The notes: a model not told the origin generated them from the sequence alone. A stretch of DNA of 64,000 bases from Candidatus Caenarcanales bacterium (GCA_020050435.1 JAGVKQ010000019.1:33644-97643), one strand, 5' to 3'. Shown: positions 15,430 through 49,092, counted from the first letter of the stretch. Translations and numbers: made by a program.

Positions 15430-15462
15430 TACTCGACTAAACAAATTAAAGGAGTCAGAATA

Positions 15463-16619: not shown

Positions 16620-16693
16620 ACAACCAAAAGGATGATCTAGAAAATAAACCATCCTTTAGTTCAATATCTATTTCAAGCTAATACAGTTAAGCT
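16620..16693 (+). promoter_or_regulatory. Boxes 16620-16636 (minus) and 16648-16664 (plus) with -10 TAAGCT at 16688
   Basis: AACCATCCTTTAGTTCAATATCTATTT identical to 15383 and 17252 copies. Confidence 0.7.
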
Positions 16694-16723
16694 TAATTAA
16701 TTAAAATAAATTGAGGAATTAAC

Positions 16724-17227: not shown

Positions 17228-17252
17228 AGATAGTTGCTTTGCTAAAGGATAA

Positions 17253-17298
17253 ACCATCCTTTAGTTCAATATCTATTTAAAGTTAATAGAGTTAAGCT
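17253..17298 (+). promoter_or_regulatory. Box 17253-17269 with -10 TAAGCT at 17293
   Basis: Same 27-bp block as at 15383 and 16647. Confidence 0.7.
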
Positions 17299-17331
17299 TA
17301 ATGGATAAAATAAATTAAGGGAGTTAATATC

Positions 17332-33947: not shown

Positions 33948-35078
33948 ATGGGAACAGCTACATTGAACATAGAAACAACTCCAGAATTAAAAGTAATAGA
34001 AGAATTAAAACTTATCTCAAAGAGTGAATATCGCTCTGTATTGAGAGAACACATTGCTGTTGAAGATTTTCAGCCAGATAAAAACGAACTTTTACGTTAC
34101 TCTTTATTTATGTCTATATATATAGTCGGAGTTTACAGCATAGTAAATCTTCCCTTAGTTCTTCCATTTAAGATGCTCATATCAATTGTTATGGGAATAT
34201 CGCTTGCTTCATTAACTTTTTTTCTCCATGATTTAATGCATGGAGCAGTTCTAAAATCAAGAAGAGCTACTTATCTTATTGGACTATCAATAGGAGTTTT
34301 AAATCTTTTTGCACCACTTTTTTGGCAAAGAGTTCATAATTTTCACCATGCAAAAACTGGTGGAATAGATGATCCTGATCGTTTATATATATGGACTGAA
34401 AAACCAAAAAATGCTTTTGAAAGATTTATATATAAGTTAAGAGTTTCCAATAGTGCATCTAATAAAATTGCAAGTGTTGCTGGAATGTCTTTTGGTTTTT
34501 TCTGGTACTTCTCTACCATGCTTTATGCAATGATGCAAAAACCAGAAAGCTATAAGGCTGATAGTCAATATCAAGGTATAAATCAGCTTTTTAAACCCAA
34601 AGAAAAACTTTTTATTTTTGGAGAATTGCTTTTTATCCTCTCATTCCAAGTTTTCATGTTTTCAGTAGTTGCCCAAGGAAACCTTATAACCTATGTTTTA
34701 ACGTCATTCTTGCCTATTCTAATAGCACACTTCACATCAATGCTATATATCCACACTAATCACTTTCTCTCACCACTTACTATGGAAATAGATGATCCTT
34801 TAATTAATTCTCTTTCATTGAAAAACAGTAAGGTCGTAGATGCAGTATTCTCAAATTTTTCGCATCACGTTGAACATCATTTATTCCCAGCAATGAGTTC
34901 ATCACACTATCCAAAAATCAGAAAATTGCTTTTAGAGATTTATCCAGGTCGTTTTCAGTTAATGCCAATGTATGATGCTGTAAAACAACTTTGCTCTACT
35001 CCAAGAATATATGCTGATCCTACAACCCTCGTTACTTATGATAAAGATGAAAAATTTAGTTGTTTAATGCCACATTAA
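33948..35078 (+). CDS. Membrane fatty-acid desaturase-family protein (paralog 1)
   Basis: His boxes HDLMH, HNFHH, HHVEHH. Confidence 0.88.
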   Translation: MGTATLNIETTPELKVIEELKLISKSEYRSVLREHIAVEDFQPDKNELLRYSLFMSIYIVGVYSIVNLPLVLPFKMLISIVMGISLASLTFFLHDLMHGAVLKSRRATYLIGLSIGVLNLFAPLFWQRVHNFHHAKTGGIDDPDRLYIWTEKPKNAFERFIYKLRVSNSASNKIASVAGMSFGFFWYFSTMLYAMMQKPESYKADSQYQGINQLFKPKEKLFIFGELLFILSFQVFMFSVVAQGNLITYVLTSFLPILIAHFTSMLYIHTNHFLSPLTMEIDDPLINSLSLKNSKVVDAVFSNFSHHVEHHLFPAMSSSHYPKIRKLLLEIYPGRFQLMPMYDAVKQLCSTPRIYADPTTLVTYDKDEKFSCLMPH

Positions 35079-35402: not shown

Positions 35403-35527
35403 ACTAGTTAATTGTAAACAATTTATTGTTATACCTGCAACTCTAATTCATTCTTAATGTCTTTATATTAACAATGGTAATGTAATCATTGAATTATTTA
35501 AAGGTTAAAAATTTGAGGTTGAGGGTT

Positions 35528-37381
35528 ATGAAAATAAAAAGTTTGTTGAGCATTCTTCTTTGTTTGTTTATTTTTTCAGGTCTATTAATAGATAAAGCAA
35601 GTGCAGAGTGTACTGGCTCAACCCCAATTTCCTGCTCAGATGGTAGTTGTGCTCAAACAGCAGCATTATGTCCATGTCCTAGTGGACAAAGTAAATGTAC
35701 AGATGGAACGTGTGCCGTTACATGCCCAGGTACTTGCAGTGGCTCCACGCCTATTACTTGTTCAGATGGAACCTGTGCAGTGGCAGCAGCAAATTGTCCA
35801 GTTGCTTGCCCTAATGAAAAACCTATCAAATGTTCTGATGGCACATGTACGGCAGTTATAGCAGACTGCTGTCCTAGCGATAAACCTATAAAATGTACAG
35901 ATGGATCATGTGCAACAGCCGCTGCAAATTGTCCAGTTACCTGTCCTAGTACTAAACCAATTTTATGCTCTGATAATACCTGTGCTTTAACTAAAGCAGA
36001 TTGCCCATGTGCTAGTGGATTAACTAAATGTTCAGATGGAACGTGTGCGACATCATGCCCATCAGATTGCCCTTCTACTAAACCTATAAAATGTTCAGAT
36101 GGATCATGTGTAGTCGCAGCAGCAGATTGTCCGGTTGCTTGCCCTAGTGAAAAACCTATTAAATGTTCAAATGGTACTTGTACTGCAGTTATAGCAGATT
36201 GTTCTACTTGTTCTTCTGAAACCCCAATTAGTTGTTTTGATGGAACTTGTTCAAAAACACAGGCTGATTGTCCATGTTCAACGGGAGAGGGTAAATGCAC
36301 AGATGGAACATGTTCAACTAAATGCTTCACATGTAGTGGAACCACACCAATAACTTGTTTTGATGGAACTTGCGCAAAAACTCAGGCTGACTGCTTATGT
36401 CCTGTTGAAAAACCATTTAAGTGTTCAGATGATATCTGTGCTCCAACAGAAGCAGAATGTCCGTCTGGTTGCCCTAGTACTAAGCCAGTTGTATGTTCAG
36501 ATGGAAGTTGTGCACAAATTAAAGCTGATTGCCCATGTTCTACTGAAAAACCATTTAAGTGCTCAGATGGAACATGTGCGGCAGTTAAAACAGATTGCCC
36601 AGTATCCTGCCCTAGTACTAAACCAGTTAAGTGTCCTGATGGAACTTGTGCTGCTAAAACAATATTATGTCCCATAGCTAATACTTGTGCTGATGATAAG
36701 CCTGTTCAATGTGCTGATGGGAGTTGTGTAGTAGAGAAAGAGCAATGCTTATTAAAAAATGGTTGCTCGCTTGAAAAACCAATTAAATGTTCTGATGGTA
36801 CCTGTGTTGAAAAAATAGCACTATGTTTTTTAGTTAATACCTGCCCAGAATCTAACCCTGTTTTATGTTCTAATGGGACCTGTGTCGCTGATAAAATCTT
36901 ATGCGATACCCCTTCTTCCCTGTGTCCAGAATCTAAACCAGTTAAATGCTCTAATGGTATATGTGTGTTAAAACCTGAAGAGTGTGTATCAAGTGGAACA
37001 GGTTCCTCTAATCCAAGACAGCAAACTACTAAGGCTCTTAGAAGCTTGGATTTGGCTGCAAAAAAACTTGCAAAATCTACAAAAGCTAGTCGTATAGTTT
37101 CAAGAAAAATTCTCATTGCTATCAATAAAACAAGATTAGCTGTAGGTATAAAAGGAGATAGTTGTGAAGAGAATATAACTAATGCTATAAATAACCTTGT
37201 TGAAATTCTTGATGAAGTAAATAGCAAGATTTGTACAGGCTCAACATCTCAAAGTTGTATTCCAGAACAGATTGTAAATGACTTTTTTGATGCAGCTAGT
37301 GATTCTATTGATATTATTCTTTCAGCTCTTGACATAGATACTAATGACGATTCTGTTCCTGATCTTTGTGGAAAGAAGTAA
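35528..37381 (+). CDS. Secreted protein with 20 Cys-rich repeats and helical C-terminal domain
   Basis: Signal peptide; 20 copies of Cx(D/N)GxC-type core within CPxxKPIKCSDGTCxxxxxxC; terminal DTNDDSVPDLC. Confidence 0.8.
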   Translation: MKIKSLLSILLCLFIFSGLLIDKASAECTGSTPISCSDGSCAQTAALCPCPSGQSKCTDGTCAVTCPGTCSGSTPITCSDGTCAVAAANCPVACPNEKPIKCSDGTCTAVIADCCPSDKPIKCTDGSCATAAANCPVTCPSTKPILCSDNTCALTKADCPCASGLTKCSDGTCATSCPSDCPSTKPIKCSDGSCVVAAADCPVACPSEKPIKCSNGTCTAVIADCSTCSSETPISCFDGTCSKTQADCPCSTGEGKCTDGTCSTKCFTCSGTTPITCFDGTCAKTQADCLCPVEKPFKCSDDICAPTEAECPSGCPSTKPVVCSDGSCAQIKADCPCSTEKPFKCSDGTCAAVKTDCPVSCPSTKPVKCPDGTCAAKTILCPIANTCADDKPVQCADGSCVVEKEQCLLKNGCSLEKPIKCSDGTCVEKIALCFLVNTCPESNPVLCSNGTCVADKILCDTPSSLCPESKPVKCSNGICVLKPEECVSSGTGSSNPRQQTTKALRSLDLAAKKLAKSTKASRIVSRKILIAINKTRLAVGIKGDSCEENITNAINNLVEILDEVNSKICTGSTSQSCIPEQIVNDFFDAASDSIDIILSALDIDTNDDSVPDLCGKK

Positions 37382-37385: not shown

Positions 37386-38570
37386 TTAAGAGTTATTTAG
37401 TTTTAATGCTTTTGCAAGAGCAGGAATGGTAGTTCCTTGTACCACCATAGATATAAGAACAACGAAAAAGACTACATTAAAAATCATTTCTGATTTTGGT
37501 ACATGGGCTAATAATGGAAAAGTTGCCAGTATTATTGGGACTGCACCACGTAGTCCTAGCCAGGAAATAAGGATTTTTTCTTTAAAACTTAGTTTTGTGA
37601 AAATTAAGCTTGCAAAAACACTAATAGGACGAGCAATCAAAGCAAGAAATATAGATGCAAGTATGCCTTTATCCATTACGTGAACTAAGTGTGATGGATA
37701 AACTAAGAGTCCAAGTGTAAAAAACATTATTATTTGCATTAACCATATAAGTCCATCATGAAAGTTCATTATTTCAATTTTGTTTTGAATTATGGATTTA
37801 CTAAGCATTATGCCAAGAATATAAACCGCTAAAAACCCACTACCATGAAAAAAAGTTGTTATACCATAGGTAAACAGAACAAATGAAATAGAAAGAACTG
37901 GATACAGTCCTTCATACTCAAGGTTTATAGAATTTAGAATTGATACTGCTAGCATCCCCATGCATAAGCCCATTGCTGTTCCGATAACAAACTGGCTAAA
38001 GAAAAAGCCTATAAACTCAGCATAGCCAGATAGTCTATTTGTAACTAAGCTTGTCAAAGCTATAGTCATAAAAACAGCCATAGGGTCATTTATTCCTGAC
38101 TCCAGCTCAACCAATGATAAAAGTTTATGATTAATGGCAAGTTTTTTTTCTTTTATAAGTGAAAAAACTGCAGCTGGATCTGTGGGTGAAATAATTGCAC
38201 CTAGTAGAAGCCCTTCAAATAAAGTAAAGCCAAGTAAATTTTTTGAAAGTATACAAATTAATACTGCAGAAAAAACTACACCTACAGTGGAAAGTGAAAT
38301 ACCTTCCCATATAATAGCTTTTGTTCGTTTCCATTTTGAACTTAATCCACTTGAAAATAAAATAAATATCAATGCAATAATTCCAAGAAATTGTGCTAAT
38401 CCAGCATCATTAAAATAAATACCTCCAGGTCCGTCTGATCCCGCCAGCATTCCAATAATTAAAAAAAGTAAAAGAGCTGGAATGTTAAGTTTTGAAGAAG
38501 CTTTGCTGGAAAATACACTTAGCATTAAAAAAACTGATGAAATTAAAATTATTTGTTCGGTTTCAAGCAT
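37386..38570 (-). CDS. K+/H+ antiporter, NhaP2/CvrA-like (membrane domain only)
   Basis: GMLAGSDGPGGIYF, TDPAAVFS, LESGINDPMA, GLRGAVPIILA; no TrkA-C tail. Confidence 0.88.
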   Translation of the reverse strand: MLETEQIILISSVFLMLSVFSSKASSKLNIPALLLFLIIGMLAGSDGPGGIYFNDAGLAQFLGIIALIFILFSSGLSSKWKRTKAIIWEGISLSTVGVVFSAVLICILSKNLLGFTLFEGLLLGAIISPTDPAAVFSLIKEKKLAINHKLLSLVELESGINDPMAVFMTIALTSLVTNRLSGYAEFIGFFFSQFVIGTAMGLCMGMLAVSILNSINLEYEGLYPVLSISFVLFTYGITTFFHGSGFLAVYILGIMLSKSIIQNKIEIMNFHDGLIWLMQIIMFFTLGLLVYPSHLVHVMDKGILASIFLALIARPISVFASLIFTKLSFKEKILISWLGLRGAVPIILATFPLLAHVPKSEMIFNVVFFVVLISMVVQGTTIPALAKALKLNNS

Positions 38571-38573
38571 AGC
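38523..38573. repeat. 51-bp direct repeat, copy 1 (5' end of antiporter gene)
   Basis: CATTAAAAAAACTGATGAAATTAAAATTATTTGTTCGGTTTCAAGCATAGC identical to 46144-46194. Confidence 0.95.
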
Positions 38574-39082
38574 TTTAATTTTACAGTACTCTTTTTAATT
38601 TTTTTTGAATTCAGGAGTTCTTTACAAAGTAATAATCCATTTAATATTTCACTAGGAGTAGGGGGATTGCCTGGGATATAAATATCAACCGGTAAAAAAT
38701 CATCTACTTTTCCTAAGCAAGCATAACTTTTCTCATATATAGAACCATTGCAAGCCCCATCTCCAATAGCTATAACTATTTTGGGAGAAGGCATTGCATT
38801 GTAAGTTTTTTCCATTGCAATTTTTAAATGTCTTGTTACGGGGCCACTTACAGTTAAAACATCTGCATGTCTTGGAGAGGCGGTAAAATCAATTCCAAAT
38901 TGTGTGAGATCATAAATCGGGTTAGACAAAGCTAATAACTCAGCTTCTTCTGCATTACAAGACCCAGTATCTAAATGACGTATAAGCAATGATTTACTTA
39001 GAGCATGTTTAGTATTTTTATCAAGCTTTTTAATCCTAGATAATTCAGTTCTGATGATTTCAGTATTTAACATTTTTAACAT
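38549..39082 (-). CDS. HyfI/NuoB-like small subunit with atypical Fe-S ligands
   Basis: IRHLDTGSCNAEE, ASPRHADVL.VSGPVT, IAIGDGAC, VDIYIPGNPP. Confidence 0.85.
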   Translation of the reverse strand: MLKMLNTEIIRTELSRIKKLDKNTKHALSKSLLIRHLDTGSCNAEEAELLALSNPIYDLTQFGIDFTASPRHADVLTVSGPVTRHLKIAMEKTYNAMPSPKIVIAIGDGACNGSIYEKSYACLGKVDDFLPVDIYIPGNPPTPSEILNGLLLCKELLNSKKIKKSTVKLKLCLKPNK

Positions 39083-39094
39083 TCCCCCCCCCTC

Positions 39095-40672
39095 TTATCT
39101 GTCAACGCATGCATAACAAAGATTAAAACTTTTATTAACTAGTGGACTATCAGGAACTATGTTTCTTCCTTTTGTTGCTTGGATTACCCCTCTCCAATTC
39201 ATATATGATGCACTTCTTACATGCCACCTTGAAATTTTATTTTTCTTATCTAAAATCAAACAGTGAATTAAAGAGCCTTTTGCTGATTCTACTGCTCCGA
39301 TTCCAGGTTCTAGCATAGATGAAAATAGTTCTGGGATTTCTTCTTTTATTTTTCCTGTAGGTAGTTTATCTATAATTTTTCGAATAAAATCAAAAATTGA
39401 ATAAATATCTTTAACTCTAACCTTAGTTCTAGCTAATGCATCTCCTTCCGTTTCAATATTGATTTCTGGAGTGAAATCATGGTAACCTGCATATTTGAAA
39501 TCTCTTCTTAAATCAATATCTATTCCTGAAGCTCGTGCTGCTGGTCCCACTATTCCAAATTTCTTTGCTTGAATAAAGCTTAACTCTCCTGTAGTTTCAA
39601 GACGATCAAGAAGTGTATCAGAATCGATAATGATTTTTTCTAATGATTTGAATTCTTTTTTTAAGTTTTGTAATTCGTCTTTTAAAGATTTAAACTCATC
39701 ATCATTAATATCTCTTTTTAAACCACCAACAGTATTTAATCCTCTGAAAAATCTATGATTTGTAAGATTGAAAGTGATTTGCATAGCTTTTTCTCTAAAG
39801 CTAGCTGCTTGCATGGAAGCTATAGCAAAACCACTAGCAGAACATATAGCAGACAAGTCAGCCAGATGGCTATTTAATCTTTCTAGTTCTAAGCAAATAG
39901 TTCTTATATATGTTGCTCTTTTAGGAATATTTATTTTACTTAGACTTTCTACAGCCTGACAGTATGCCGTAGAATGCGAATAAGAACACATTCCACACAC
40001 ATGTTCTGCCAGTATAAGCCCTTCTTCTATGGTTTTTCCTTCTGCACTTTTTTCAATACCTTTATGTGTATAGAAAAGCTGAGCATTAAAATCAAGTATT
40101 TGTTCACCAATAGTGCAAAACCTTAAATGTCCTGGCTCTATTATTCCTGCATGGATTGGTCCTACTGCTACTTGATGCATTCCTTCAGCATGAGGCTGTG
40201 TGAACTGATGAGGGACTTCTGAGATTTCAATTTCTGTATTTAACTTAAAATCTTTTCGCATAGGGAAGTGTTTTCCATGAGGAAAGTCTCCATGCAGAAC
40301 TAGTGGTAGCAAATCTACTCCTTCAGCAACTATTCCAAACATATCATGAATCTCACGCTCAAACCATTCTGCCGCTGGAATTAACTTACTGATGGTGGGA
40401 TATGAGGGTTTTGTCTCATCTAAACAAACTTTAAATGTAAGTAAAGAAGCTGTATTTAAAATTAGAAAAATTAAATGCAGTTTATATTTCTTATTTAATG
40501 ATCTTTCATCTATGGCAAACATTGTTAGAAATGATACTTTTTCTTTCAATAAAACTTCAATGGAATCTTGTAAATCTTCTTTTTGAATGTTACACAATAA
40601 ATGATTGGTGTTGATGGTGCTTTCATCAAGGTTACATTTTTTTAATACAGATATTATGTTTGATTTATTCAT
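39095..40672 (-). CDS. HyfG/HycE-like large subunit (NuoC+NuoD-like fusion) of group 4 hydrogenase / Ehr-type complex
   Basis: FEREIHDMFG, VGPIHAGIIEPGH, EHVCGMCSYSH, ELERL, NKSFNLCYACVDR at C-terminus. Confidence 0.9.
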   Translation of the reverse strand: MNKSNIISVLKKCNLDESTINTNHLLCNIQKEDLQDSIEVLLKEKVSFLTMFAIDERSLNKKYKLHLIFLILNTASLLTFKVCLDETKPSYPTISKLIPAAEWFEREIHDMFGIVAEGVDLLPLVLHGDFPHGKHFPMRKDFKLNTEIEISEVPHQFTQPHAEGMHQVAVGPIHAGIIEPGHLRFCTIGEQILDFNAQLFYTHKGIEKSAEGKTIEEGLILAEHVCGMCSYSHSTAYCQAVESLSKINIPKRATYIRTICLELERLNSHLADLSAICSASGFAIASMQAASFREKAMQITFNLTNHRFFRGLNTVGGLKRDINDDEFKSLKDELQNLKKEFKSLEKIIIDSDTLLDRLETTGELSFIQAKKFGIVGPAARASGIDIDLRRDFKYAGYHDFTPEINIETEGDALARTKVRVKDIYSIFDFIRKIIDKLPTGKIKEEIPELFSSMLEPGIGAVESAKGSLIHCLILDKKNKISRWHVRSASYMNWRGVIQATKGRNIVPDSPLVNKSFNLCYACVDR

Positions 40673-42150
40673 AATATTCCTTTTCCATGAATAATTTCTA
40701 CGGATCTATTTAATAATTTAAACAAGGGTGCTGGTATCCAGACACTTAATAATGTAATGATAAACAGTGGTATTACTAATGCTAAAACTCCTAATTTGCT
40801 TACTTCTTCTCTAAGATTATTCTTTTCTTCAGTGCTGTTTCCTATAGTCATATTCATAGTTTGGTACATTATTGCACCAAAAATAATAAGTGAAAATAAT
40901 ATAAATAATGAGCTAATAACCCAATGCTTTTCAAGTATTCCAGCTCTGATTATATAAAACTCACTTAAGAAAACTGAAAAAGGTGGTGATCCCATTAAAG
41001 CAAGTGCTCCGATTAAAAATATTGTTCCACTAAATGGCATTATATTTATGGCAGATTTGATTTTACTTATATCTTTTGTTTGAAATTTTAATGAGAGGTT
41101 TCCTGCTGTAAAGAACATTAAAGTTTTTGTGATTGCATGATTAAACATGTGGAATACTGCTCCGAATATAGACAGTGGACTTCCTATTCCTAATCCAGTC
41201 ACAATTATTCCTATGTGTTCAAGGCTGCTATATGCTAATAAACGTTTGATCTGATTTTGTGTCATTATAAATGGAACTGATAGTGCAATAGAAAACATTC
41301 CAAAAAACAGTAACATGTTATTGGTAAATGCTGCACCGATAGATTCATTAGCAATAATAGTAAATCTAATAATGCTGTAAAGACTGCACTTTAAAAGAAC
41401 TCCGGAAAGTAATGCACTGACTGGTGTAGGTGCTTCACTGTAAGCATCTGGTAACCATGAATGCATAGGAGCAAGACCTACTTTTGTTCCATAGCCGATT
41501 AGTATAAATGCAAAAGCTAACTTTATTATATTGGGATTAAATTTCTTTGATATAGAAAGTAAATAATCCCAGTTTAAACTTAAAGACTCAACTCCTCCAG
41601 AGTGAATTGCAGCATAGAAGCATAGAATGATTCCTATCATTGCAAATGCAATTCCAACACTACAAAGTATTATATATTTCCAGGCAGCTTCAATGGAAGT
41701 GCTCTTATTGTAGTACCCTACTAGGAAAGCAGAAATCAGTGTAATTACCTCTATTCCAACCCAGACAAGTCCTATGTTATTAGAAATTACAACTGTTAGC
41801 ATTGTGAGCACAAAAATATTCAGTAAAAAATAGAATTTTTTCAATTTCCATAAAGGGAAAGAATATTCCTCATTACTTTTAATCATATAATCGGCTGAAT
41901 ACAAAGAAACAAGCAAGCTAACAGTGCCAATTATTAAAATTAGTAATCCACTGAAAGCATCTATATAAACCAGATTGTTGAAAGATTTAATTACGCCTAG
42001 TTTAATTACGTTATTTAATAATTTAATTACAACTAAAAGTAAACACAAAGATCCCGATATCTGAATAGGAGCAAACTGTTTTTCATTTTTAGGCAATAAG
42101 CAAAGAATCGCAGTAATGAAAGGAATTAGTATAAGTAAAATTATTTCCAT
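40669..42150 (-). CDS. hyfF: HyfF-like antiporter-like membrane subunit
   Basis: EAAWKY, GYGTKVGLAPMHSWLPDAYSEAP, KRLLAYSSLEH. Confidence 0.85.
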   Translation of the reverse strand: MEIILLILIPFITAILCLLPKNEKQFAPIQISGSLCLLLVVIKLLNNVIKLGVIKSFNNLVYIDAFSGLLILIIGTVSLLVSLYSADYMIKSNEEYSFPLWKLKKFYFLLNIFVLTMLTVVISNNIGLVWVGIEVITLISAFLVGYYNKSTSIEAAWKYIILCSVGIAFAMIGIILCFYAAIHSGGVESLSLNWDYLLSISKKFNPNIIKLAFAFILIGYGTKVGLAPMHSWLPDAYSEAPTPVSALLSGVLLKCSLYSIIRFTIIANESIGAAFTNNMLLFFGMFSIALSVPFIMTQNQIKRLLAYSSLEHIGIIVTGLGIGSPLSIFGAVFHMFNHAITKTLMFFTAGNLSLKFQTKDISKIKSAINIMPFSGTIFLIGALALMGSPPFSVFLSEFYIIRAGILEKHWVISSLFILFSLIIFGAIMYQTMNMTIGNSTEEKNNLREEVSKLGVLALVIPLFIITLLSVWIPAPLFKLLNRSVEIIHGKGIL

Positions 42151-42152
42151 TT

Positions 42153-42824
42153 TTATCCTTTTAATTTACTTAATTTGCTTACATCTATGGAGTCGAATGA
42201 TTGTTTTATTCTAAGTGTCCAGACTCCCATAATTAGTACTCCTATAAATAAATCTAGAGAAATTCCCATTTCAACTACAAAAGGCATTCCAAATACTGTG
42301 TCTAATGTAAGGGCGAAAATCCCATTTTCCATTACATACAAGCCAATAATTTGTGTGAGAGCTTTTTTTCTACTTATCATTATTAATAAGCCAATTAATA
42401 TAATGGATATTGCAGCATTAAATAGTCCTGGGTAATATGCTATCCTTCCAAAATTTTGTGTCATTGATAAGCCGTAAACAAATGCAATTAATGCAGAGGC
42501 AATTAATACTGTAGTTGAAGGACTTATTATCGGTACAACCTCTTTGTTTGCCTGACTTTTATCAATTACAAAATTCAAAGCAAGTGGTATTACAATGCAT
42601 TTTCCTAAAAGAGTTATTATTGCTATTCGCAGAGTTTCTGGATTATTAATTGAAAATCCTATTATCAGGGTTATTATTACCAGGCATGAAGATTGAAGTA
42701 AATAAAATTTAACTATAGATTTTAGTCTATTACTTCCTGTAATTAAAATGCTCATTAAAAGTAAAACTACAGTAAAGTAACTGATTATTGGAGTTGTAAA
42801 TTCTTGTGTTAGAAAGTTATTCAT
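42153..42824 (-). CDS. hyfE: HyfE-like membrane subunit
   Basis: SRKKALTQIIGLYVMENGI, PFVVEMG..LD. Confidence 0.85.
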   Translation of the reverse strand: MNNFLTQEFTTPIISYFTVVLLLMSILITGSNRLKSIVKFYLLQSSCLVIITLIIGFSINNPETLRIAIITLLGKCIVIPLALNFVIDKSQANKEVVPIISPSTTVLIASALIAFVYGLSMTQNFGRIAYYPGLFNAAISIILIGLLIMISRKKALTQIIGLYVMENGIFALTLDTVFGMPFVVEMGISLDLFIGVLIMGVWTLRIKQSFDSIDVSKLSKLKG

Positions 42825-43792
42825 GGCATTGAAACCCTTCCTAATTCTTGAATAACCAGAATTAATGCTAGTACTGAAATTGCAAAAGAAGTTACAAGTA
42901 TGTCTTTCACTCTAAACAATCTGACCTTTGCAATAACAGTTTCACCTAGAGTAATAATAATTGAAATAATAAGAATTTTTAAAATATAAAATGCTAATCC
43001 AGTACTTATGCTAATTAAAGTAAATTTGTTTATAATTCCCCAAGGAAAAATTAAATTACAAATTAAAGAAATTATTATTAATTGCTTTAACCAATTAGCC
43101 CAAACCATTAACCCAAGTAATTTTCCGGAGTACTCTAATAACATTCCTTCATGAATCATAGTAAGTTCATAGTGAGTTTCCTGATTGTCAAATGGAATCC
43201 TTCCTATTTCAGCAATAGAAATTATAAACAATGCAAATATGGCAAGAACATAGCTAATGGAAGGAAAAGTTAAATCATGTTTTACAAGTGAGGTTATTAT
43301 AGTAGGAATTTGCGTTGAGTTAGATAGTAAACATAAAACAATGAGAGAAAGAAGCATAACTGGCTCAATTAAAACAGAAAGCATCATTTCTCTACTGCTA
43401 GCCATTCCACAAAACCCACTTCCTGGTTCCATTGCTGCAAGAGACATAAAAAATCTTCCTAAACTAAGCAAGTAAACAAAAAGAATTACTCCGCCAAACA
43501 TACCAATACTCTCAATTTCAAAAAACATTGGTACAAATAGTCCTGCAGTAAGAGTTGAAGAAAAAACAATTAAAGGAGTTGTAGAGAAAATCCATGATGT
43601 TTGATCTGATATAACTGTTTCCTTGTGAAAGTATTTAGTTAAATCATAGTATCCTTGAAACAGTGGAATCCCTTTTCTTCCCTGTAATAAACCCTTCATT
43701 TTTTTAATTACAGAATTTACCATTGGAGAAAGTAAAAGCAGTCCAATTATTTGACTTAATATTAGTATTATATTTTTTGTTTCAATATTCAT
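42821..43792 (-). CDS. hyfC: HyfC/HycD (NuoH-like) membrane subunit
   Basis: QGRKG.P..Q.YYDL.K, SSREM....L.EP, EIGRIPFDN.ETH.ELTMIHE.M.LEYSG; ATGA overlap with hyfB stop. Confidence 0.88.
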   Translation of the reverse strand: MNIETKNIILILSQIIGLLLLSPMVNSVIKKMKGLLQGRKGIPLFQGYYDLTKYFHKETVISDQTSWIFSTTPLIVFSSTLTAGLFVPMFFEIESIGMFGGVILFVYLLSLGRFFMSLAAMEPGSGFCGMASSREMMLSVLIEPVMLLSLIVLCLLSNSTQIPTIITSLVKHDLTFPSISYVLAIFALFIISIAEIGRIPFDNQETHYELTMIHEGMLLEYSGKLLGLMVWANWLKQLIIISLICNLIFPWGIINKFTLISISTGLAFYILKILIISIIITLGETVIAKVRLFRVKDILVTSFAISVLALILVIQELGRVSMP

Positions 43793-45753
43793 AAGCTTAC
43801 CCAAATAATAGAAATTACTAAAGCAATAAAAATATAAGTCAAGTAAACCTGCACAACTCCTGACTGAACGGTTTTGACTTTGTAGGAGAATTTATTTAAG
43901 ACATCATAAATGGGAAGATAAATCCACTTGTAGTAAAAATCTTTTGGGATATGTAGTCCTGAAAAAATGACCTCTATGGGTTGAATGAAGCCAGTAGGAG
44001 TGTATTCAAACTCAGCCTTAGGACTTATTCCACAACTCCATGTTTCATCTTTTCTTGTAGTGGTTTTATTATTAACTAACTTAGGGATAATAAATCCAAG
44101 AAAAGAGAAACTTAAAAGTAGCAAAAGAATTAGAGTTGGTGAATAATGTCCTGAAACAGTATTATTTATGTGTAATATTTGATTATTAGAAAATGCCGCT
44201 GAGTTAACTTGACTTAAATTAATTAAAGTAGAAGCAGCTGGACAAATCAATGAAATTGTAAATAATGGAAACAGTCCTATTAATAAACATAGACTTGAAG
44301 ATATAAATAAACTGAATATCATAGACTTGGAAGATTCTTGAGCATACTCTACTAAATGCGTTCTAGGCATTGCCATAAATATTCCTGAAAATAATTTTAT
44401 AAATGTTGCAATGCATATAGCACCAGTTAAACCTAATAATGAAGCGGAGATTATTCCTATAGTTTTTATAACATTTGAAGAAGTGTTAAACAGAGCCAGT
44501 AAATTCTGAAATATAAGCCATTCACTTGCAAAGCCATTTAGTGGAGGAAATGCACAGATAGCCAGGACTCCGATCAAGAAAAACAAAGATGTTTTTGGCA
44601 TCTTTTTTATTAATCCGCCTAATTTGGAAAAACTTCTTGTATGAGTTGTTGAGATTACTGAACCTGAAGCCATAAAAAGTAATGATTTAAAAATAGAGTG
44701 ATTTAGGGTGTGAAATAAGCTTATAACTAAAGAAATAGCTGCAAGGTCATAGAGTCTTAAGCTGTAAAAAATAATTCCAGTGCTGATGGGAATGAAAATT
44801 ATGCCAATATTTTCTATGCTGCTATATGCAAGAAGTCTTTTTATATCATTTTCCTGAGAAGCGTAGATAATTCCAACCAATGCTGTAGATACCGCTACTA
44901 AAAGTAAACAAACTCCCCACCAATATGAATTAGGGTTTAAAAACTCAAAAGTTACACGTAATAATCCATATATTGCTGTTTTAATCATAACTCCAGACAT
45001 TAGGGCAGATATATGGCTAGGTGCTGCTGGATGTGCTTCTGGAAGCCAGATGTGTAATGGAATTAATCCTGCTTTAGTTCCAAAACCAATCAATGCAAAA
45101 ATAAACAATAAAAGATTTAAATTATCAGGCATTTTTTTATAAACGCCATGGAATGATTCAAATGAAAAGCTTCCAGAATAGTTTGCCATTATTAAAAATA
45201 AAAATAATAAAAAAGCTGATCCAATATGCGTCATTAAGAGATAGATAAAACCTGCAGATCTTGATTCATCACTAGAAGTGTTAGAAATAATTAGCCCATA
45301 GGATATTAAGGTCATTGATTCCCAGAAGATTAAAAACAGCAGTGCATCATTAGCACTTACCAAAAGAATCATTGATAATAAAAACAAATTGTATAAAAAT
45401 ACTAAAAGAGGTATTGATGTTTTTGTAGATTCTGATTTTAAATAGCCAATTGAAAAAATTGAAACAGAAATTGAAATTAATGAGATTAAGAAAATAAAAA
45501 ATGCTGAAAATGGGTCTACTGAAAGAATGGGAGTTAATAATGGAATATTTATAGGTAATTCTATTTTAAAACTGTTCTTGTGGAGTAAAACATTGACTGA
45601 ACTAAGAAGGCTGAAAAGTGCAGCAATTATTGCGAAAATACTAGATGTATATATGCCAAGCTTATTTGAATACAGTCCTAATACGAGTGAAAATAATGCC
45701 CCGATAATAAAAAACAATATAGAGAATTCAAGCAGTAAAATATTATTTTCCAT
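43789..45753 (-). CDS. hyfB: HyfB-like antiporter-like membrane subunit
   Basis: FWESM, GFGTKAGLIPLHIWLPEAHPAAPSHISALMSG, KRLLAYSSIEN, PPLNGFASEW, TWSCG. Confidence 0.88.
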   Translation of the reverse strand: MENNILLLEFSILFFIIGALFSLVLGLYSNKLGIYTSSIFAIIAALFSLLSSVNVLLHKNSFKIELPINIPLLTPILSVDPFSAFFIFLISLISISVSIFSIGYLKSESTKTSIPLLVFLYNLFLLSMILLVSANDALLFLIFWESMTLISYGLIISNTSSDESRSAGFIYLLMTHIGSAFLLFLFLIMANYSGSFSFESFHGVYKKMPDNLNLLLFIFALIGFGTKAGLIPLHIWLPEAHPAAPSHISALMSGVMIKTAIYGLLRVTFEFLNPNSYWWGVCLLLVAVSTALVGIIYASQENDIKRLLAYSSIENIGIIFIPISTGIIFYSLRLYDLAAISLVISLFHTLNHSIFKSLLFMASGSVISTTHTRSFSKLGGLIKKMPKTSLFFLIGVLAICAFPPLNGFASEWLIFQNLLALFNTSSNVIKTIGIISASLLGLTGAICIATFIKLFSGIFMAMPRTHLVEYAQESSKSMIFSLFISSSLCLLIGLFPLFTISLICPAASTLINLSQVNSAAFSNNQILHINNTVSGHYSPTLILLLLLSFSFLGFIIPKLVNNKTTTRKDETWSCGISPKAEFEYTPTGFIQPIEVIFSGLHIPKDFYYKWIYLPIYDVLNKFSYKVKTVQSGVVQVYLTYIFIALVISIIWVSL

Positions 45754-45759
45754 TTATTT

Positions 45760-46083
45760 TTATCTCTTCGATAGTCCCTTTAATAAATTTTGTATATCTA
45801 TCAATTGTTCATTAAATATTTTTTTAGTTTCATCAAGTAGTTTAAAAATAATAGAATGTCTAATAGAGTAGTAAATATTATTTCCAGATTTTCTAGTGAT
45901 TACTATATTATTATTTCTAAGGATTGCTAGCTGTTGAGAAACGTTTGGAGCTTCAATACCCAGTCTTTTTTTTAATTCATTTACCGTAAGCTCTCCATTG
46001 CGGAGTTCATCTATTATTTGAATCCTAATTGGGTTGGCAAGTGCTTTAAAAAATGTTGCTTTAAATTCTCTTAGTCTCTTCAT
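45760..46083 (-). CDS. ArsR/SmtB-family transcriptional regulator (no cysteines)
   Basis: FFKALANPIRIQII..L..GE.TV.EL...LG.E..NVSQQLAILR; ATG 46083 preferred over GTG 46128. Confidence 0.88.
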   Translation of the reverse strand: MKRLREFKATFFKALANPIRIQIIDELRNGELTVNELKKRLGIEAPNVSQQLAILRNNNIVITRKSGNNIYYSIRHSIIFKLLDETKKIFNEQLIDIQNLLKGLSKR

Positions 46084-46110
46084 TTTTTTTGTTCTGTTTG
46101 TTCGTTTAGT

Positions 46111-46130
46111 ATATGCGAATATTCGCACAT
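46111..46130. promoter_or_regulatory. Palindromic operator, probable ArsR autoregulatory site
   Basis: ATATGCGAATATTCGCACAT (perfect 14-bp core TGCGAATATTCGCA) abutting minus-strand -10 TATACT. Confidence 0.7.
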
Positions 46131-46143
46131 AGCTATTTTAACA

Positions 46144-46194
46144 CATTAAAAAAACTGATGAAATTAAAATTATTTGTTCGGTTTCAAGCATAGC
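46144..46194. repeat. 51-bp direct repeat, copy 2 (orphan 5' end of antiporter; reads MLETEQIILISSVFLMC* on minus strand, 46138-46191)
   Basis: Identical to 38523-38573; extends to 59/61 including the -10 TAAAAT. Confidence 0.95.
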
Positions 46195-46217
46195 CATAAT
46201 TTTATATTATGATATGG

Positions 46218-46949
46218 CTAGTTCTGCTTCCTTTCTAATCTAATATTTGCTTCTTGTTCTTTACCATTAGCATTTGCAGAATTAGAGTTTCTTTGATTAA
46301 TAGGGAGTTTAGAAATAACTAAATTGTAAAAGGGCAGACTTCTTACCCACTCATTAATTGCAAACTGTTCAACTGTACGGCAACCTACACCTACAATTGG
46401 ATTTTCTGTATCAATAAATAAAAGTCTGCATAGTGTTCTACTTAAAAATTCATCTGATAGGGTTTTATAATCAAATTGGCTAGCCTTTAAAACTCCTATT
46501 CCAATAAGACCTATTCTTGAGCCTAATCTAGCGAACATATTTAAAAACCCTGTTCCCATTCTTTTAAACTTATCTATTTGTCTGTTTGGATCGACTATGG
46601 CTGTACCCATAGTAATCTCTAATGATTTTCTAATTCCAGTAAGAAACATATTTAAATTAATTTCTTTTATTTGCTTCTGGAAAAGGTGTAAAAGCGAACG
46701 AGAAGAAAGATATCTGACATTTTCAGTTATAAAACGAAAGCCTATTCTATTTGCGTAGTTTTCCATATTTGTCTCATAGTATCTACCAGCACCCCTAATA
46801 AAAGAATCAAGAATACTAGGAAGTCCCATGATGGGAGTGTTATTAGCATTTTCCATAGAAATCTTTTGCAGATCATTTTTACCAGAAGATGGCAATGTCC
46901 TAATAATAGGTTGAGGAATAAAATATGAATATATAGGATTTATAGGCAT
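46218..46949 (-). CDS. Hypothetical protein downstream of a poly-Cys leader
   Basis: 243-aa ORF, no motif recognised. Confidence 0.65.
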   Translation of the reverse strand: MPINPIYSYFIPQPIIRTLPSSGKNDLQKISMENANNTPIMGLPSILDSFIRGAGRYYETNMENYANRIGFRFITENVRYLSSRSLLHLFQKQIKEINLNMFLTGIRKSLEITMGTAIVDPNRQIDKFKRMGTGFLNMFARLGSRIGLIGIGVLKASQFDYKTLSDEFLSRTLCRLLFIDTENPIVGVGCRTVEQFAINEWVRSLPFYNLVISKLPINQRNSNSANANGKEQEANIRLERKQN

Positions 46950-47010
46950 TTAAAATAAAAAAAAGCAAAAAAAATCATAATAAAAAAATTCTTTCTAGAC
47001 CCAAAACAAC

Positions 47011-47038
47011 AAAAAAGTTAGTCTAAGGTCAGACTAAC
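47011..47038 (-). terminator. Attenuator-like terminator hairpin overlapping the leader stop codon
   Basis: Minus strand GTTAGTCT-GACCTT-AGACTAAC-TTTTTT. Confidence 0.75.
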
Positions 47039-47096
47039 AACAACAGCTTTTACAGCAGCATTGAATTGTTATTTGGTTTGTGAAAGAAATAATCAT
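47034..47096 (-). CDS. Putative cysteine-sensing leader peptide MIISFTNQITIQCCCKSCCC (absent from ORF track)
   Basis: 6 Cys codons in the last 8 codons; stop inside terminator 5' arm. Confidence 0.7.
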   Translation of the reverse strand: MIISFTNQITIQCCCKSCCC

Positions 47097-47221
47097 TATG
47101 AAAGTTCTTGCTTAACCTTGTTTTCTTAACTTATAGGCTTTTTATTATATACTAATCTTCAATTTACAATAATAAAAAAATTATAAAAATAGATTTTATA
47201 ATAAAAAGCTAGAGTAATAGT

Positions 47222-48064
47222 ATGGAGTTTGAGCATAAAATAGTTAAAACTGAAATTGGTGATGTGGAGTATACAGACATTGGATCAGGTCCAGTTATTG
47301 TTCTTTCACATGGTACTCCTGGAGGCTCAGATGTCGGTCCATTGATTTTCAGCGAAATAATCTCTCATGATTTCAGACTGATTACCCCATCAAGACCTGG
47401 ATATTTAAAAACTAGCCTTGATCTGGGAAAGACACCAGAAGAACAAGCAAAAGTTTTTTACCATTTTATTGAAGCATTAAATATTGAAAAAGCTTCATTC
47501 CTTGCATGGTCTGGTGGTGGACCTCTTGCTTTGAATTTTGCTATAAACTATCCAGAAAAAATTTCATCTTTAGTCATGCTATCCACGGTAACAAAAAAAC
47601 TTGTTGAAAAAAGTATGCTCTTCAAACTTTTTGTTAAAAATGAATTTTTGCCAAGAACTTTGTTAAGTGCAAAAAAATCATTACCTTTTTTAAATAATTT
47701 AATTTGTAAGGAGTTGGGTGCTAATCCAAAGATTGCATTGAGTGATGAGAAGAAATTAAAAATTTTAGATGCACTTATAGCATCAACAATGCCTTCAAAC
47801 TTGAGATTCCATGGGTATGCAAATGATGCAGAACAATTTGCAAAGCTAGAAGATATGGAATTTCATAAAGTCCTTTGTCCTACAATGATTTTATTTGATG
47901 AAAAAGATACCCAAGTCCATGTGCATCATGGTGATCATTTATCTGAAAAAATACCACACAGTGTTTACCTGAAATTTACAAAAGGCGGACATACTCCTAT
48001 GCTTGATGAGGAGTCAATTGTAGTAATAGAACATATGGTTAAATTTTTTAAAGAACATGTTTAA
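47222..48064 (+). CDS. Alpha/beta hydrolase
   Basis: HGTPGG, SRPGY, AWSGGG nucleophile elbow, D..V, GGH. Confidence 0.88.
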   Translation: MEFEHKIVKTEIGDVEYTDIGSGPVIVLSHGTPGGSDVGPLIFSEIISHDFRLITPSRPGYLKTSLDLGKTPEEQAKVFYHFIEALNIEKASFLAWSGGGPLALNFAINYPEKISSLVMLSTVTKKLVEKSMLFKLFVKNEFLPRTLLSAKKSLPFLNNLICKELGANPKIALSDEKKLKILDALIASTMPSNLRFHGYANDAEQFAKLEDMEFHKVLCPTMILFDEKDTQVHVHHGDHLSEKIPHSVYLKFTKGGHTPMLDEESIVVIEHMVKFFKEHV

Positions 48065-48072: not shown

Positions 48073-49092
48073 TCAACAATGAGTTGCTTTATATTTTATA
48101 ATCGAGGAAAGCCCACCTGGTAGAAAAGATTTAAGCAAATCATATGCCAGTTTTAATTTTACTTTTTTTGGATAAAAGCAAAAAGAGTTCTCTTCCCAAT
48201 AATTTGGCTCAAACTTATCCTTAAAGTATTCTAGTGATTGAAAGTGATATATAAAAGATAATTTTTCATAAGAATATCTAAGAACTTTATTTACAATAGG
48301 ATGATTGATATCTGAGCTGGGTAATTTAGATAAAGGTGCCAAACCATAGCTAGCCATACTATAACCTTCCTCTGCAAGCAAGTTTAATGCAGAGGTAATT
48401 AAAAGTTCGCTACAACCATGAGGGGCATTTTCTTCTCTTACTAAATCGTGCAAATTCCAGCCATTTCTTTCATATATGGGTGAGCAGCTTAGAAAAGCTT
48501 TTAATCTGTTTTCATCATCTATTAACAAGAAATATTTTTTATACTCTTTTAGTTCGAGAGGATTTAATTCAAACAAAAATTGCATGGCTGGCATTTCTCT
48601 TGTTCTTTCCCATCTTCTGGAATATGTGCTTATATCTTTTTCATAGATTGAATTAAAGGGGACTACTTTAAGTCCTTTTTTTATTGCTCTGCTTATACTA
48701 TTTCTGACTTTTCCATCTTGTTTTTTTAAATTCTTTAAATCAAATATAGGTTCTTTTCCTATACTTATACTGTCAAAGCCTATTGCTTTTAAAATTGGCT
48801 GTGTTCTTTCACTGACAGGAATAAAACCTACATACTCCGTTTCTTTAAGAGAAAGTTCTAAAAATATCTTAGCTAATAAATAGATATTTTCCGGGTCGCA
48901 AACAGGTTCACAAGCGCCTAAGGTTAAATCATTATTTCTTATGTAGGGAATAAAACCTTCTATTCCAGGAACAGAAAAGAACCTTATGCCAGGGTATAAG
49001 CTTACAAATGATAAAGAGCCATAGCCGTATTTTTTTAAACTTGATTCAATACAGTCTTTTTCATTTAATTTAGCTTTTATTGCAACTGTCAT
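48073..49092 (-). CDS. Stand-alone MprF/DUF2156-type aminoacyltransferase domain
   Basis: EPVCDP, IGKEP.FDL, DLVRE..APHG.SE.LI, GLAPLS, Y.FQSL.YFK.KF.P.W; no TM flippase domain. Confidence 0.78.
   Translation of the reverse strand: MTVAIKAKLNEKDCIESSLKKYGYGSLSFVSLYPGIRFFSVPGIEGFIPYIRNNDLTLGACEPVCDPENIYLLAKIFLELSLKETEYVGFIPVSERTQPILKAIGFDSISIGKEPIFDLKNLKKQDGKVRNSISRAIKKGLKVVPFNSIYEKDISTYSRRWERTREMPAMQFLFELNPLELKEYKKYFLLIDDENRLKAFLSCSPIYERNGWNLHDLVREENAPHGCSELLITSALNLLAEEGYSMASYGLAPLSKLPSSDINHPIVNKVLRYSYEKLSFIYHFQSLEYFKDKFEPNYWEENSFCFYPKKVKLKLAYDLLKSFLPGGLSSIIKYKATHC

What the first reader, a model, noticed from the sequence alone, without database searches (positions are those of the whole stretch)
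38523..46204. Hydrogenase-like operon is a 7.6-kb cassette bracketed by a perfect 51-bp direct repeat, with no integrase
Seen: 38523-38573 equals 46144-46194 (59/61 when extended), 7621 bp apart. The repeat is the -10, start and first 16 codons of the antiporter gene. One copy heads the intact gene; the other is an orphan reading MLETEQIILISSVFLMC*. Between them lie exactly ArsR, its operator and the six complex subunits, and the small-subunit ORF takes its stop codon from inside the repeat. Inference: an energy-conserving module integrated at the 5' end of the antiporter gene, restoring that gene (attL/attR-like). It could excise or amplify by recombination, and it may place the K+/H+ antiporter in the same transcript.
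Basis: partly seen in the sequence, partly recalled or inferred. Interest (0 to 1): 0.75.

Follow-up and report, generated by a model that had tools for sequence, protein, structure and literature searches.

The report
Hydrogenase-like operon flanked by duplicated gene-start
A regulator gene plus six hydrogenase-like genes sit inside the start of a potassium/proton antiporter gene, flanked by two identical 51-base copies of that start; this looks like the scar of a single recombination event, not a self-mobile element.

Summary
38523-38573 equals 46144-46194 exactly (51 nt, 7621 nt apart; 59/61 and 62/66 when extended). It is the longest dispersed exact repeat in the window; simulated sequences reach at most 18 nt. 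The repeat is GCT plus the first 16 codons of an NhaP2-type K+/H+ antiporter, whose N-terminus is conserved across that family. One copy heads the intact gene. The other is an orphan ending MLETEQIILISSVFLMC*. Between them lie only a palindrome, arsR and hyfB-C-E-F-G-I. HyfI reads 22 nt into the antiporter gene. Its 19-residue tail is absent from 31 aligned relatives, and the 16 closest end after 1-7 residues. The hyfI/antiporter junction therefore looks derived. I found no integrase or transposase domain in 68 ORFs across the 64 kb, no terminal inverted repeats, and no GC, GC3 or codon deviation. My best reading is a recent recombination that inserted the arsR-hyf unit and duplicated the crossover segment, as in single-crossover integration of a circular fragment. 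It does not look like an att/integrase element. Excision through the 51-nt repeats is possible but untested. No close relative genome could be fetched, so the empty-site test and read support remain open. Interest is modest.

The parts
38523..38573 (-). Repeat copy A: GCT plus the first 16 codons of the intact antiporter gene. It also encodes the last residues and the stop of HyfI in another frame.
46144..46194 (-). Repeat copy B, 51/51 identical to copy A: the orphan 5' fragment of the antiporter gene.
38574..38588 (-). Imperfect extension of copy A (11/15 identical to 46195-46209). It lies inside the HyfI tail codons.
46195..46209 (-). Imperfect extension of copy B. It lies in the 26-nt spacer after the stop codon (46220-46218) of the 243-aa gene.
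46138..46191 (-). Orphan ORF MLETEQIILISSVFLMC* (17 codons plus TAA). Homology to the antiporter ends sharply after codon 16, inside what is transmembrane helix 1 in the intact protein.
   Evidence: coordinate check
46111..46130 (.). Imperfect 20-nt palindrome (perfect 14-nt core 46114-46127), 13 nt after repeat copy B and upstream of arsR. It is a candidate ArsR operator.
   Evidence: function inferred
45760..46083 (-). arsR: ArsR/SmtB-family regulator. The ATG at 46083 is the likely start; the listed GTG at 46128 lies inside the palindrome.
   Evidence: NF033788, 86 bits against cut-off 55
43789..45753 (-). HyfB-like antiporter-type membrane subunit (654 aa).
   Evidence: NF005086, 609 bits, below its cut-off of 667
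42821..43804 (-). HyfC/NuoH-like membrane subunit (327 aa).
   Evidence: PF00146
42153..42824 (-). HyfE-like membrane subunit (223 aa).
   Evidence: NF008556, 93 bits, below its cut-off of 136
40669..42150 (-). HyfF-like antiporter-type membrane subunit (493 aa).
39095..40672 (-). HyfG/HycE-like large subunit (fused 30-kDa and 49-kDa domains, 525 aa). Both CxxC nickel-iron motifs are present.
38549..39082 (-). HyfI/NuoB-like small subunit (177 aa) with an abnormal 19-residue tail. Its last 12 residues and its stop are encoded by the repeat region.
38599..38606 (-). Run of eight A in the hyfI 3' end. One more A would give ...LLNSKKN*, and one fewer would give ...SKKLKRVL*. Both alternatives end before the antiporter ATG.
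   Evidence: read
37386..38570 (-). Intact K+/H+ antiporter (NhaP2/CvrA type, short form without a TrkA_C domain, 394 aa).
   Evidence: (NF003716, 494.9 bits against cut-off 355)
46218..46949 (-). 243-aa gene of unknown function directly upstream of the orphan copy. It belongs to a real family (47 cluster representatives, best 54% identity).

Best explanation
The repeat is a recombination scar. A complete, self-regulated transcription unit (palindrome, arsR, hyfB-C-E-F-G-I) was placed into the very start of a resident K+/H+ antiporter gene. The event duplicated the crossover segment, which is the antiporter's last upstream bases plus its first 16 codons.

The simplest route is a single (Campbell-type) crossover between the chromosome and a circularised DNA fragment. 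That fragment would have carried the unit plus about 51-66 nt of antiporter 5' sequence. Integration leaves one truncated orphan copy upstream and rebuilds the intact gene downstream. No integrase is needed, and the 51 nt are a by-product rather than a dedicated att site.

Shown: the anatomy, the antiporter origin of the repeat, the abnormal hyfI end, and the absence of mobility genes and of compositional deviation.

Inferred:
- The event is recent, because the presumably neutral orphan differs at 0 of 51 positions.
- The donor was the same lineage or a close one, because composition is identical.
- The antiporter is now co-transcribed with, and translationally overlapped by, hyfI.
- Homologous recombination between the repeats could delete the 7621 nt and leave an intact gene.
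For: - Exact 51-nt repeat, against a maximum of 18 nt in 30 simulations.
- The repeat is the family-conserved N-terminus (M..E.I.L..S..L.LS) of this antiporter family. It is seen in all 17 relatives printed, and homology stops inside the first transmembrane helix. The repeated DNA therefore comes from the antiporter gene and the orphan is a gene fragment.
- The junction after the orphan is sharp, with no similarity beyond 46144.
- HyfI has 19 residues after the conserved CKxLLx block. The 16 closest of 31 aligned relatives (77-90% identity) have 1-7, and no relative's tail resembles TVKLKLCLKPNK. The repeat homology starts at HyfI codon 166, right after the domain ends at about residue 163.
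- By eye, none of the long contigs carrying the 119 listed HyfI relatives has the same length as a contig carrying any of the 119 listed antiporter relatives. This argues against a conserved hyfI-antiporter pair.
- 0 of 68 ORFs scanned have an integrase, transposase or recombinase domain.
- Cassette GC, GC3 and codon use lie within the background. The only z-scores near -2 are for membrane proteins, including the antiporter outside the cassette.
- Experimental precedent: in E. coli, 56 of 60 integrants of a non-replicating molecule carried a 109-950 bp duplication of the homologous segment, made by single crossover of a re-circularised molecule (PMC3240628, passages read).
Against: - No relative genome close enough to show an empty site or a donor arrangement was found. 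The antiporter's best relatives are 59% identical among proteins and 56% in genome contigs.
- 0 of 80 antiporter loci have a hyp243-like gene next to the antiporter, so the proposed ancestral hyp243-antiporter pair is not seen anywhere, although all 80 are distant.
- All 4 mismatches of the 66-nt match fall in the distal 15 nt. By hand calculation, (15/66)^4 is about 0.003 for random placement. A single clean duplication followed by neutral drift does not predict this. It requires a slightly diverged donor, gene conversion of the 51 nt, or selection on the hyfI tail and antiporter start region.
- The long HyfI tail could come from a 1-nt length change in the A8 run rather than from a junction.
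- Tail lengths among the 15 more distant relatives reach 20 residues, so tail length alone is not decisive.
- Junctions are not checked against reads.
Confidence: 0.5

Rival explanations
1. This is a site-specific integrative element. The 51 nt are the identity core of attL/attR, the element carries its own copy of the antiporter start so that the gene is restored, and the integrase acts in trans or has been lost (a cis-mobilisable remnant).
For: A perfect core with an imperfect extension (11/15) on one side only resembles att sites in which the element mimics the end of its target gene. The cargo is a tidy complete unit.
Against: 0 of 68 scanned ORFs in the 64 kb have an integrase, recombinase, excisionase or transposase domain. 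There is no tRNA or tmRNA target, no compositional deviation, and no second copy of the sequence in the window. Integration at a gene's 5' end with restoration of the start is unusual (my own knowledge).
Confidence: 0.18
2. The hyf-antiporter adjacency is ancestral and the orphan is secondary. A stretch of about 66 nt (antiporter start region) was copied 7.6 kb upstream, between the 243-aa gene and the arsR control region, for example by replication template switching. Nothing of 7.6 kb ever moved.
For: It needs only a 66-nt insertion. Uniform composition fits a long-resident operon. A +1 change in the A8 run (38599-38606) would give HyfI a normal short tail with a 27-nt spacer before the antiporter ATG (read), so the odd tail need not mark a junction.
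Against: The 16 closest HyfI relatives end 1-7 residues after the domain. By eye, no long contig is shared between the listed HyfI and antiporter relatives. This model needs two new junctions that happen to fall exactly at a stop codon and a control region. The 11/15 similarity between the hyfI tail and the spacer after the 243-aa gene would still need explaining.
Confidence: 0.15
3. Assembly artefact: the contig mis-joins strain variants or collapses and expands a repeat, and one junction does not exist in any cell.
For: The names of the closest relatives are all metagenome-assembled genomes, so the source may be a metagenome assembly. A perfect repeat of a length near common k-mer sizes (my own knowledge) invites suspicion. 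No reads were available.
Against: The repeat is internal to the window and flanked by unique sequence on all four sides. The match continues imperfectly for 15 nt (62/66), which a k-mer overlap would not produce. A mis-join between variants gives one copy of the shared k-mer, not two. Every ORF across the region is intact.
Confidence: 0.07
4. The orphan is kept for a function. It would be a 17-codon leader ORF, or promoter-bearing leader, that controls arsR-hyf expression, which would explain why it is still perfect.
For: The orphan is a complete ORF with its own stop, 13 nt before the palindrome. The region 46230-46060 folds far better than shuffles (z = -6.1). TGTTAAAAT, an extended -10-like motif, straddles the junction at 46143-46135 (read by eye).
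Against: The fold signal comes largely from the palindrome itself. Pairing between the orphan and the arsR start region is not unusual: -12.9 kcal/mol, with 39 of 500 shuffles and 24 of 278 other cassette windows at least as good. Promoter-like sites are no more frequent than in shuffles. Conservation could not be tested.
Confidence: 0.08

Closest known systems
Single-crossover (Campbell-type) integration of a circular, non-replicating DNA carrying a short piece of target homology, for example the lacZ duplications in E. coli conjugation experiments (PMC3240628)
   Same: The insert is flanked by a direct duplication of the homologous target segment. One copy is truncated and one rebuilds the gene. 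No dedicated recombinase gene lies in the insert.
   Different: The duplication here is only 51-66 nt, against 109-950 bp in that study. The cargo is a natural 7.5-kb operon. Donor and circle are hypothetical. The 4 mismatches cluster at one end.
Homology-facilitated illegitimate recombination and the 'orphan' gene fragments it is proposed to leave, such as T6SS effector/immunity arrays and Rhs loci (PMC5361080; PMC3240628 introduction)
   Same: A new module enters using one homologous anchor and one illegitimate junction, and a remnant of the resident gene is left beside it.
   Different: The classical process usually deletes recipient DNA rather than duplicating it (PMC3240628, passage read). 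Here the resident gene stays intact and the remnant is a 5' fragment.
Integrase-borne genomic islands and cis-mobilisable elements flanked by attL/attR
   Same: Direct repeats derived from the end of a target gene bracket a cargo, and the target gene is restored.
   Different: There is no integrase in 64 kb, the target is a 5' end of a protein gene rather than a tRNA 3' end, and there is no compositional signature.
Group 4 membrane-bound [NiFe]-hydrogenases of the Hyf/Hyc kind (E. coli formate hydrogenlyase, PDB 7z0s) and the uncharacterised six-subunit group 4f 'Ehf' complexes
   Same: It has a fused 30K/49K large subunit with both CxxC motifs, a NuoB-like small subunit, a NuoH-like subunit and two NuoL/M/N-like membrane subunits plus HyfE, giving six structural genes. 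The best solved match is HycE at E = 1.7e-82.
   Different: In the small subunit, three of the four canonical iron-sulfur cysteine positions are not Cys. There is no HycF/NuoI-like or HycB-like ferredoxin subunit and no formate dehydrogenase in the cassette. The subgroup (4f or other) was not determined here.

Membership tests
Integrase-mediated integrative element (attL/attR island) | Direct repeats flanking the element | tested here: met
   51/51 identical, 62/66 extended
Integrase-mediated integrative element (attL/attR island) | Integrase or recombinase gene in or beside the element | tested here: not met
   Pfam on 68 ORFs across the 64 kb found none. Small and overlapping ORFs were not scanned.
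Integrase-mediated integrative element (attL/attR island) | Empty site in relatives, or detectable circular or excised form | not testable with these tools
   The best genome relative of the antiporter is 56% identical.
Integrase-mediated integrative element (attL/attR island) | Composition or codon use different from the host | tested here: not met
   GC, GC3 and codon log-likelihood lie within the background of 40 window genes.
Transposon or insertion sequence with target-site duplication | Transposase gene and terminal inverted repeats, with a short (2-15 bp) duplication | tested here: not met
   No transposase. None of the 25 longest inverted-repeat pairs lies at the cassette ends. The duplication is 51-66 nt.
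Single-crossover (Campbell-type) integration product | Insert flanked by a direct duplication of a target-gene segment, with one copy truncated, one copy rebuilding the gene, and a sharp end of homology | tested here: met
Single-crossover (Campbell-type) integration product | Circular donor molecule carrying the homology | not testable with these tools
   Needs reads or relatives.
[quoted passage not shown] | Large subunit with the N-terminal and C-terminal CxxC nickel-iron ligands | tested here: met
   VCGMCSYSH and NLCYACVDR align to VCGICGFAH and DPCYSCTDR of HycE, 7z0s_E.
[quoted passage not shown] | Small subunit with four Cys binding the proximal [4Fe-4S] cluster | tested here: not met
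   Against MbhJ and HycG: SCNaEe versus CNgC (second Cys is Glu), the third position is Gly with a Cys two residues later, and PGNPP versus PGCPP. The same holds in 30 of 31 aligned relatives; the exception is P0113 at 52% identity.
[quoted passage not shown] | Membrane arm: NuoH-like plus NuoL/M/N-like subunits | tested here: met
   PF00146 and PF00361 twice, with HyfB/F/E models as best NCBIfam hits, all below their equivalog cut-offs.
Ehr (energy-converting hydrogenase-related complex) | Large subunit lacks the Ni-Fe-binding residues (definition as given in PMC6349859, passages read) | tested here: not met
   All four Cys are present.
NhaP2/CvrA-type K+/H+ antiporter (CPA1) | Score above the NCBIfam equivalog cut-off | tested here: met
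   NF003716 scores 494.9 bits against cut-off 355, covering model positions 3-392 of 499. The C-terminal TrkA_C part is absent.

The most novel reading that the evidence does not exclude
The 51-nt repeats make the arsR-hyf unit a recombinase-free, reversible 'operon switch'. Homologous recombination would loop the 7621 nt out as a circle and put it back. Cells in a population would then differ in whether they carry the hydrogenase-like complex, and in whether the K+/H+ antiporter is expressed from its own upstream region or as the last gene of an ArsR-controlled operon.
Probability: 0.08. Interest if true: 0.7.

Novelty: new member of a known kind. Interest (0 to 1): 0.3.

Why it matters
If the junctions are real, this is a clean natural example of a whole regulated operon moving into a gene start without any mobile-element gene. 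The duplicated homology keeps the target gene intact and leaves the event reversible. It also physically couples an ion-translocating, hydrogenase-like complex to a K+/H+ antiporter in one transcript. That hints at a functional link between the two in pH or ion homeostasis, in a poorly sampled relative of the Melainabacteria. It remains a single instance without population or comparative support, so its present value is as a testable case rather than a new principle.

Tried and rejected
1. Empty-site or synteny test with relatives. The search for related loci with the antiporter returned 80 loci, best 56% identity. A tblastn of the nine region proteins found no hyfG, hyfI, hyfC, hyfE or hyp243 match in any of the 80. 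It found only NuoL/M/N-like matches in L028, L056, L065 and L076, and an arsR-like match in L035.
2. The listing of cluster members for ten region proteins was unavailable. The protein-atlas search for the 243-aa protein was unavailable. Neither was retried.
3. Plasmid search with HyfG found 249 records, all below 60% identity and about 31-36% in the 25 rows listed, mostly enterobacterial Hyc/Hyf and rhizobial loci. It gave no context.
4. Compositional foreignness was rejected.
5. tRNA, tmRNA and Rfam targets or elements: none in the window.
6. Promoter and terminator scans are no better than shuffles: 55 promoter-like sites against 53.4, and 4 terminator-like sites against 4.6.
7. A regulatory RNA pairing between the orphan and the arsR start is not significant. 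The strong fold z-score is dominated by the palindrome.
8. Tandem duplication followed by deletion was considered and set aside, because it does not explain the 11/15 similarity upstream of the 51 nt.
9. Matching contig lengths between the HyfI, antiporter and MprF-like hit tables was done by eye only. Two small coincidences were judged to be chance: 3791 nt comes from different sources, and 1974 nt is too short to hold both proteins.
Full report
**1. The observation**

The repeat finder on 37500-47500 and on the whole window shows 38523-38573 identical to 46144-46194 (51/51), 7621 nt apart. It is the longest exact dispersed repeat in the window. Thirty first-order Markov simulations of the window gave at most 18 nt, mean 16.8. 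There are only two copies.

All relevant genes are on the minus strand, in this order:
- a 243-aa gene, 46949..46218
- a 26-nt spacer
- the orphan ORF, 46191..46138 (MLETEQIILISSVFLMC*)
- 13 nt from the end of repeat copy B (46144) to the palindrome
- the palindrome ATGTGCGAATATTCGCATAT, 46130-46111
- arsR (likely ATG at 46083, ending 45760)
- six Hyf-like genes
- the antiporter, 38570..37386

The 51 nt are GCT plus the first 16 codons. The hyfI stop (38551-38549) lies inside the repeat, 22 nt into the antiporter ORF.

**2. What the genes are**

Pfam and NCBIfam give the following:
- The antiporter is an NhaP2/CvrA-type K+/H+ antiporter (NF003716, 494.9 bits against cut-off 355). It is a short form without the C-terminal TrkA_C part.
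- arsR is an ArsR/SmtB regulator.
- The six structural genes are HyfB-, HyfC/NuoH-, HyfE-, HyfF-, HyfG- (fused 30K+49K) and HyfI/NuoB-like proteins.

The large subunit aligns to E. coli HycE (7z0s_E, E = 1.7e-82) with both CxxC nickel-iron motifs kept. By the definition quoted in PMC6349859 (passages read) it is therefore not an Ehr complex.

The small subunit is unusual. Against MbhJ (6cfw_J) and HycG (7z0s_G), three of the four canonical iron-sulfur cysteine positions are not Cys. This holds for 30 of 31 aligned relatives.

No ferredoxin-like (HycF/NuoI, HycB) subunit and no formate dehydrogenase lies in the cassette. The six-gene make-up resembles what papers call group 4f/Ehf. A preprint reports ehfA-F to be acid-induced in a methanotroph (10.1101/2025.08.29.672306, passages read). 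The subgroup was not determined here.

**3. Where the repeated DNA comes from**

The first 16 residues match the conserved N-terminus of this antiporter family. The pattern M..E.I.L..S..L.LS is visible in all 17 relatives printed, and homology between the two copies stops in the middle of the first transmembrane helix. The repeat is therefore antiporter DNA, and the upstream copy is a gene fragment.

**4. The hyfI end is abnormal**

A search with HyfI found 879 relatives, of which 119 were listed apart from the window's own protein. I aligned 31 of those 119: the top 21 plus ten with names or long contigs.
- After the conserved CKxLLx block the window protein has 19 residues.
- The 16 closest relatives (77-90% identity) have 1-7 residues.
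- The other 15 have 3-20 residues.
- No relative's tail resembles TVKLKLCLKPNK.

The NuoB model match ends at residue 163, and the 66-nt homology starts at codon 166. The right-hand edge of the cassette therefore coincides with the natural end of hyfI, and the present stop is borrowed from antiporter DNA.

One caveat applies. An A8 run lies at 38599-38606, and one more A would give ...LLNSKKN*, a normal-looking end. A length change or sequencing error there could also explain the tail.

**5. Is the hyf-antiporter pair conserved?**

Three lines of evidence bear on this:
- The antiporter's nearest relatives are only 59-56% identical (for proteins, for genomes).
- None of the 80 fetched antiporter loci has hyfG, hyfI, hyfC, hyfE or the 243-aa gene nearby.
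- By eye, none of the long contigs carrying the listed HyfI relatives has the same length as a contig carrying a listed antiporter relative.

This argues weakly that the adjacency is particular to this lineage.

A flanking gene (MprF C-terminal-like, 48073-49092) has its best relatives at 65% and then 53-43% identity. One of them is named Candidatus Obscuribacterales, and a more distant hit at 33% identity is named Cyanobacteria bacterium. One HyfI relative is named Candidatus Melainabacteria. The organism is thus probably a poorly sampled relative of the Melainabacteria. The 59% for the antiporter is ordinary divergence and not a sign that it is foreign. The 243-aa gene belongs to a real family (47 cluster representatives, best 54%).

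**6. Signs of mobility**

- Pfam on 68 ORFs across the window found no integrase, recombinase or transposase. The only phage-associated domain is a YopX protein 12 kb away.
- There are no tRNA genes and no Rfam matches.
- No inverted repeats lie at the cassette ends.
- GC is flat at about 0.31.
- Cassette genes have GC 0.28-0.33 and GC3 0.19-0.23, against 0.326 +/- 0.029 and 0.200 +/- 0.031 for 40 other genes.
- Codon-use z-scores near -2 occur only for membrane proteins, and the antiporter outside the cassette shows the same value.

**7. Reading**

The orphan is presumably free to drift, yet it differs at 0 of 51 positions. Either the event is recent or the copies are being homogenised. The cassette is compositionally native, so the DNA came from the same lineage or a very similar one.

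All 4 mismatches sit in the distal 15 nt. By hand calculation, (15/66)^4 is about 0.003 if they were placed at random. The two 15-nt stretches were therefore probably never identical, which would fit a donor and a recipient that differed upstream of the start codon. Alternatively they changed under selection, since one now encodes the HyfI tail and the antiporter's initiation region.

A single crossover between the chromosome and a circularised fragment carrying promoter/operator-arsR-hyf plus the first codons of an antiporter gene gives exactly this structure: one sharp illegitimate junction (46144|46143) and a duplicated crossover segment. Such duplications were the main outcome (56 of 60 clones, 109-950 bp) when a non-replicating molecule integrated in E. 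coli (PMC3240628, passages read). Orphan fragments left by related processes are discussed for T6SS and Rhs loci (PMC5361080, passages read).

I rate this reading at about 0.5. The rivals are:
- an att site served by an absent integrase (0.18)
- an ancestral hyf-antiporter operon with a small secondary copy upstream (0.15)
- a functional leader (0.08)
- misassembly (0.07)

**8. Consequences read from the sequence**

- hyfI and the antiporter overlap, and no terminator-like site separates them on the minus strand. The scan itself is no better than shuffles. The antiporter is very likely the last gene of the unit.
- The 243-aa gene ends 26 nt before the orphan, so read-through from it is also possible.
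- Recombination between the repeats would remove exactly 7621 nt and leave 243-aa gene, spacer and intact antiporter. This is an inference and nothing here shows that it happens.
- A functional link between an ion-translocating complex and a K+/H+ exchanger is plausible but not tested.

**9. What stayed open**

- There is no read support.
- No close relative genome could be fetched.
- The supplementary operon maps of PMC6349859 were not seen.

**Verdict**

The insertion-like geometry and co-transcription hold. The att-like mobile cassette is not supported. This is a tidy example of a known kind of recombination product, of modest interest unless population data show it switching.

Noticed in passing
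window 38549-39082 (HyfI) and alignment A1: The small subunit and 30 of 31 aligned relatives lack the canonical ligands of the proximal [4Fe-4S] cluster: CNA-E instead of CxxC, Gly at the third position with a Cys two residues later, and PG[DN]PP instead of PGCPP. The large subunit keeps all four Ni-Fe cysteines. Four other Cys positions (42, 111, 122, 153) are nearly invariant in the clade and might form a different site.
   Followed up: partly
window 38599-38606: A run of eight A sits just before the repeat. A change of one base either way would end HyfI before the antiporter start, so this could be a sequencing-error or slippage site.
   Followed up: partly
window 46135-46143: TGTTAAAAT, an extended -10-like motif, begins exactly at the first base after repeat copy B, 4 nt before the palindrome. 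The cassette may therefore start precisely at its own promoter. Read by eye only.
   Followed up: no
window 35489-37381: A 630-aa secreted-looking protein made of about 20 cysteine-rich repeats (CSDGTC...KP.KC) with no Pfam match, convergent with the antiporter and ending 4 nt from it.
   Followed up: no
window 33948-35078 and 50204-51352: Two fatty-acid desaturase paralogues in the same orientation (73% identical over 177 nt) bracket a 16-kb stretch that includes the whole region studied.
   Followed up: no
window 15373-15470, 16637-16734, 17242-17339: A conserved element of about 98 nt (71-80% identity, core AAACCATCCTTTAGTTCAATATCTATTT) precedes three consecutive plus-strand genes. It may be a shared promoter or leader.
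   Followed up: no
window 55140-59453: A 1437-aa protein built of about 15 tandem 144-nt (48-aa) units, matching the DUF5122 beta-propeller repeat.
   Followed up: no
window 22387-22686 and 22771-23070: A 300-nt internal duplication (91% identity) inside a PAS histidine-kinase gene.
   Followed up: no
window 25736-26179: A YopX-domain gene is the only phage-associated domain found in the 64 kb. No other phage genes were seen around it.
   Followed up: no
window 46195-46225: The two bases that differ next to copy B (TG instead of AA) make ATGGCT complementary to AGCCAT at the end of the 243-aa gene, giving a small hairpin in the fold. They also create an in-frame ATG two codons upstream of the orphan start.
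   Followed up: no
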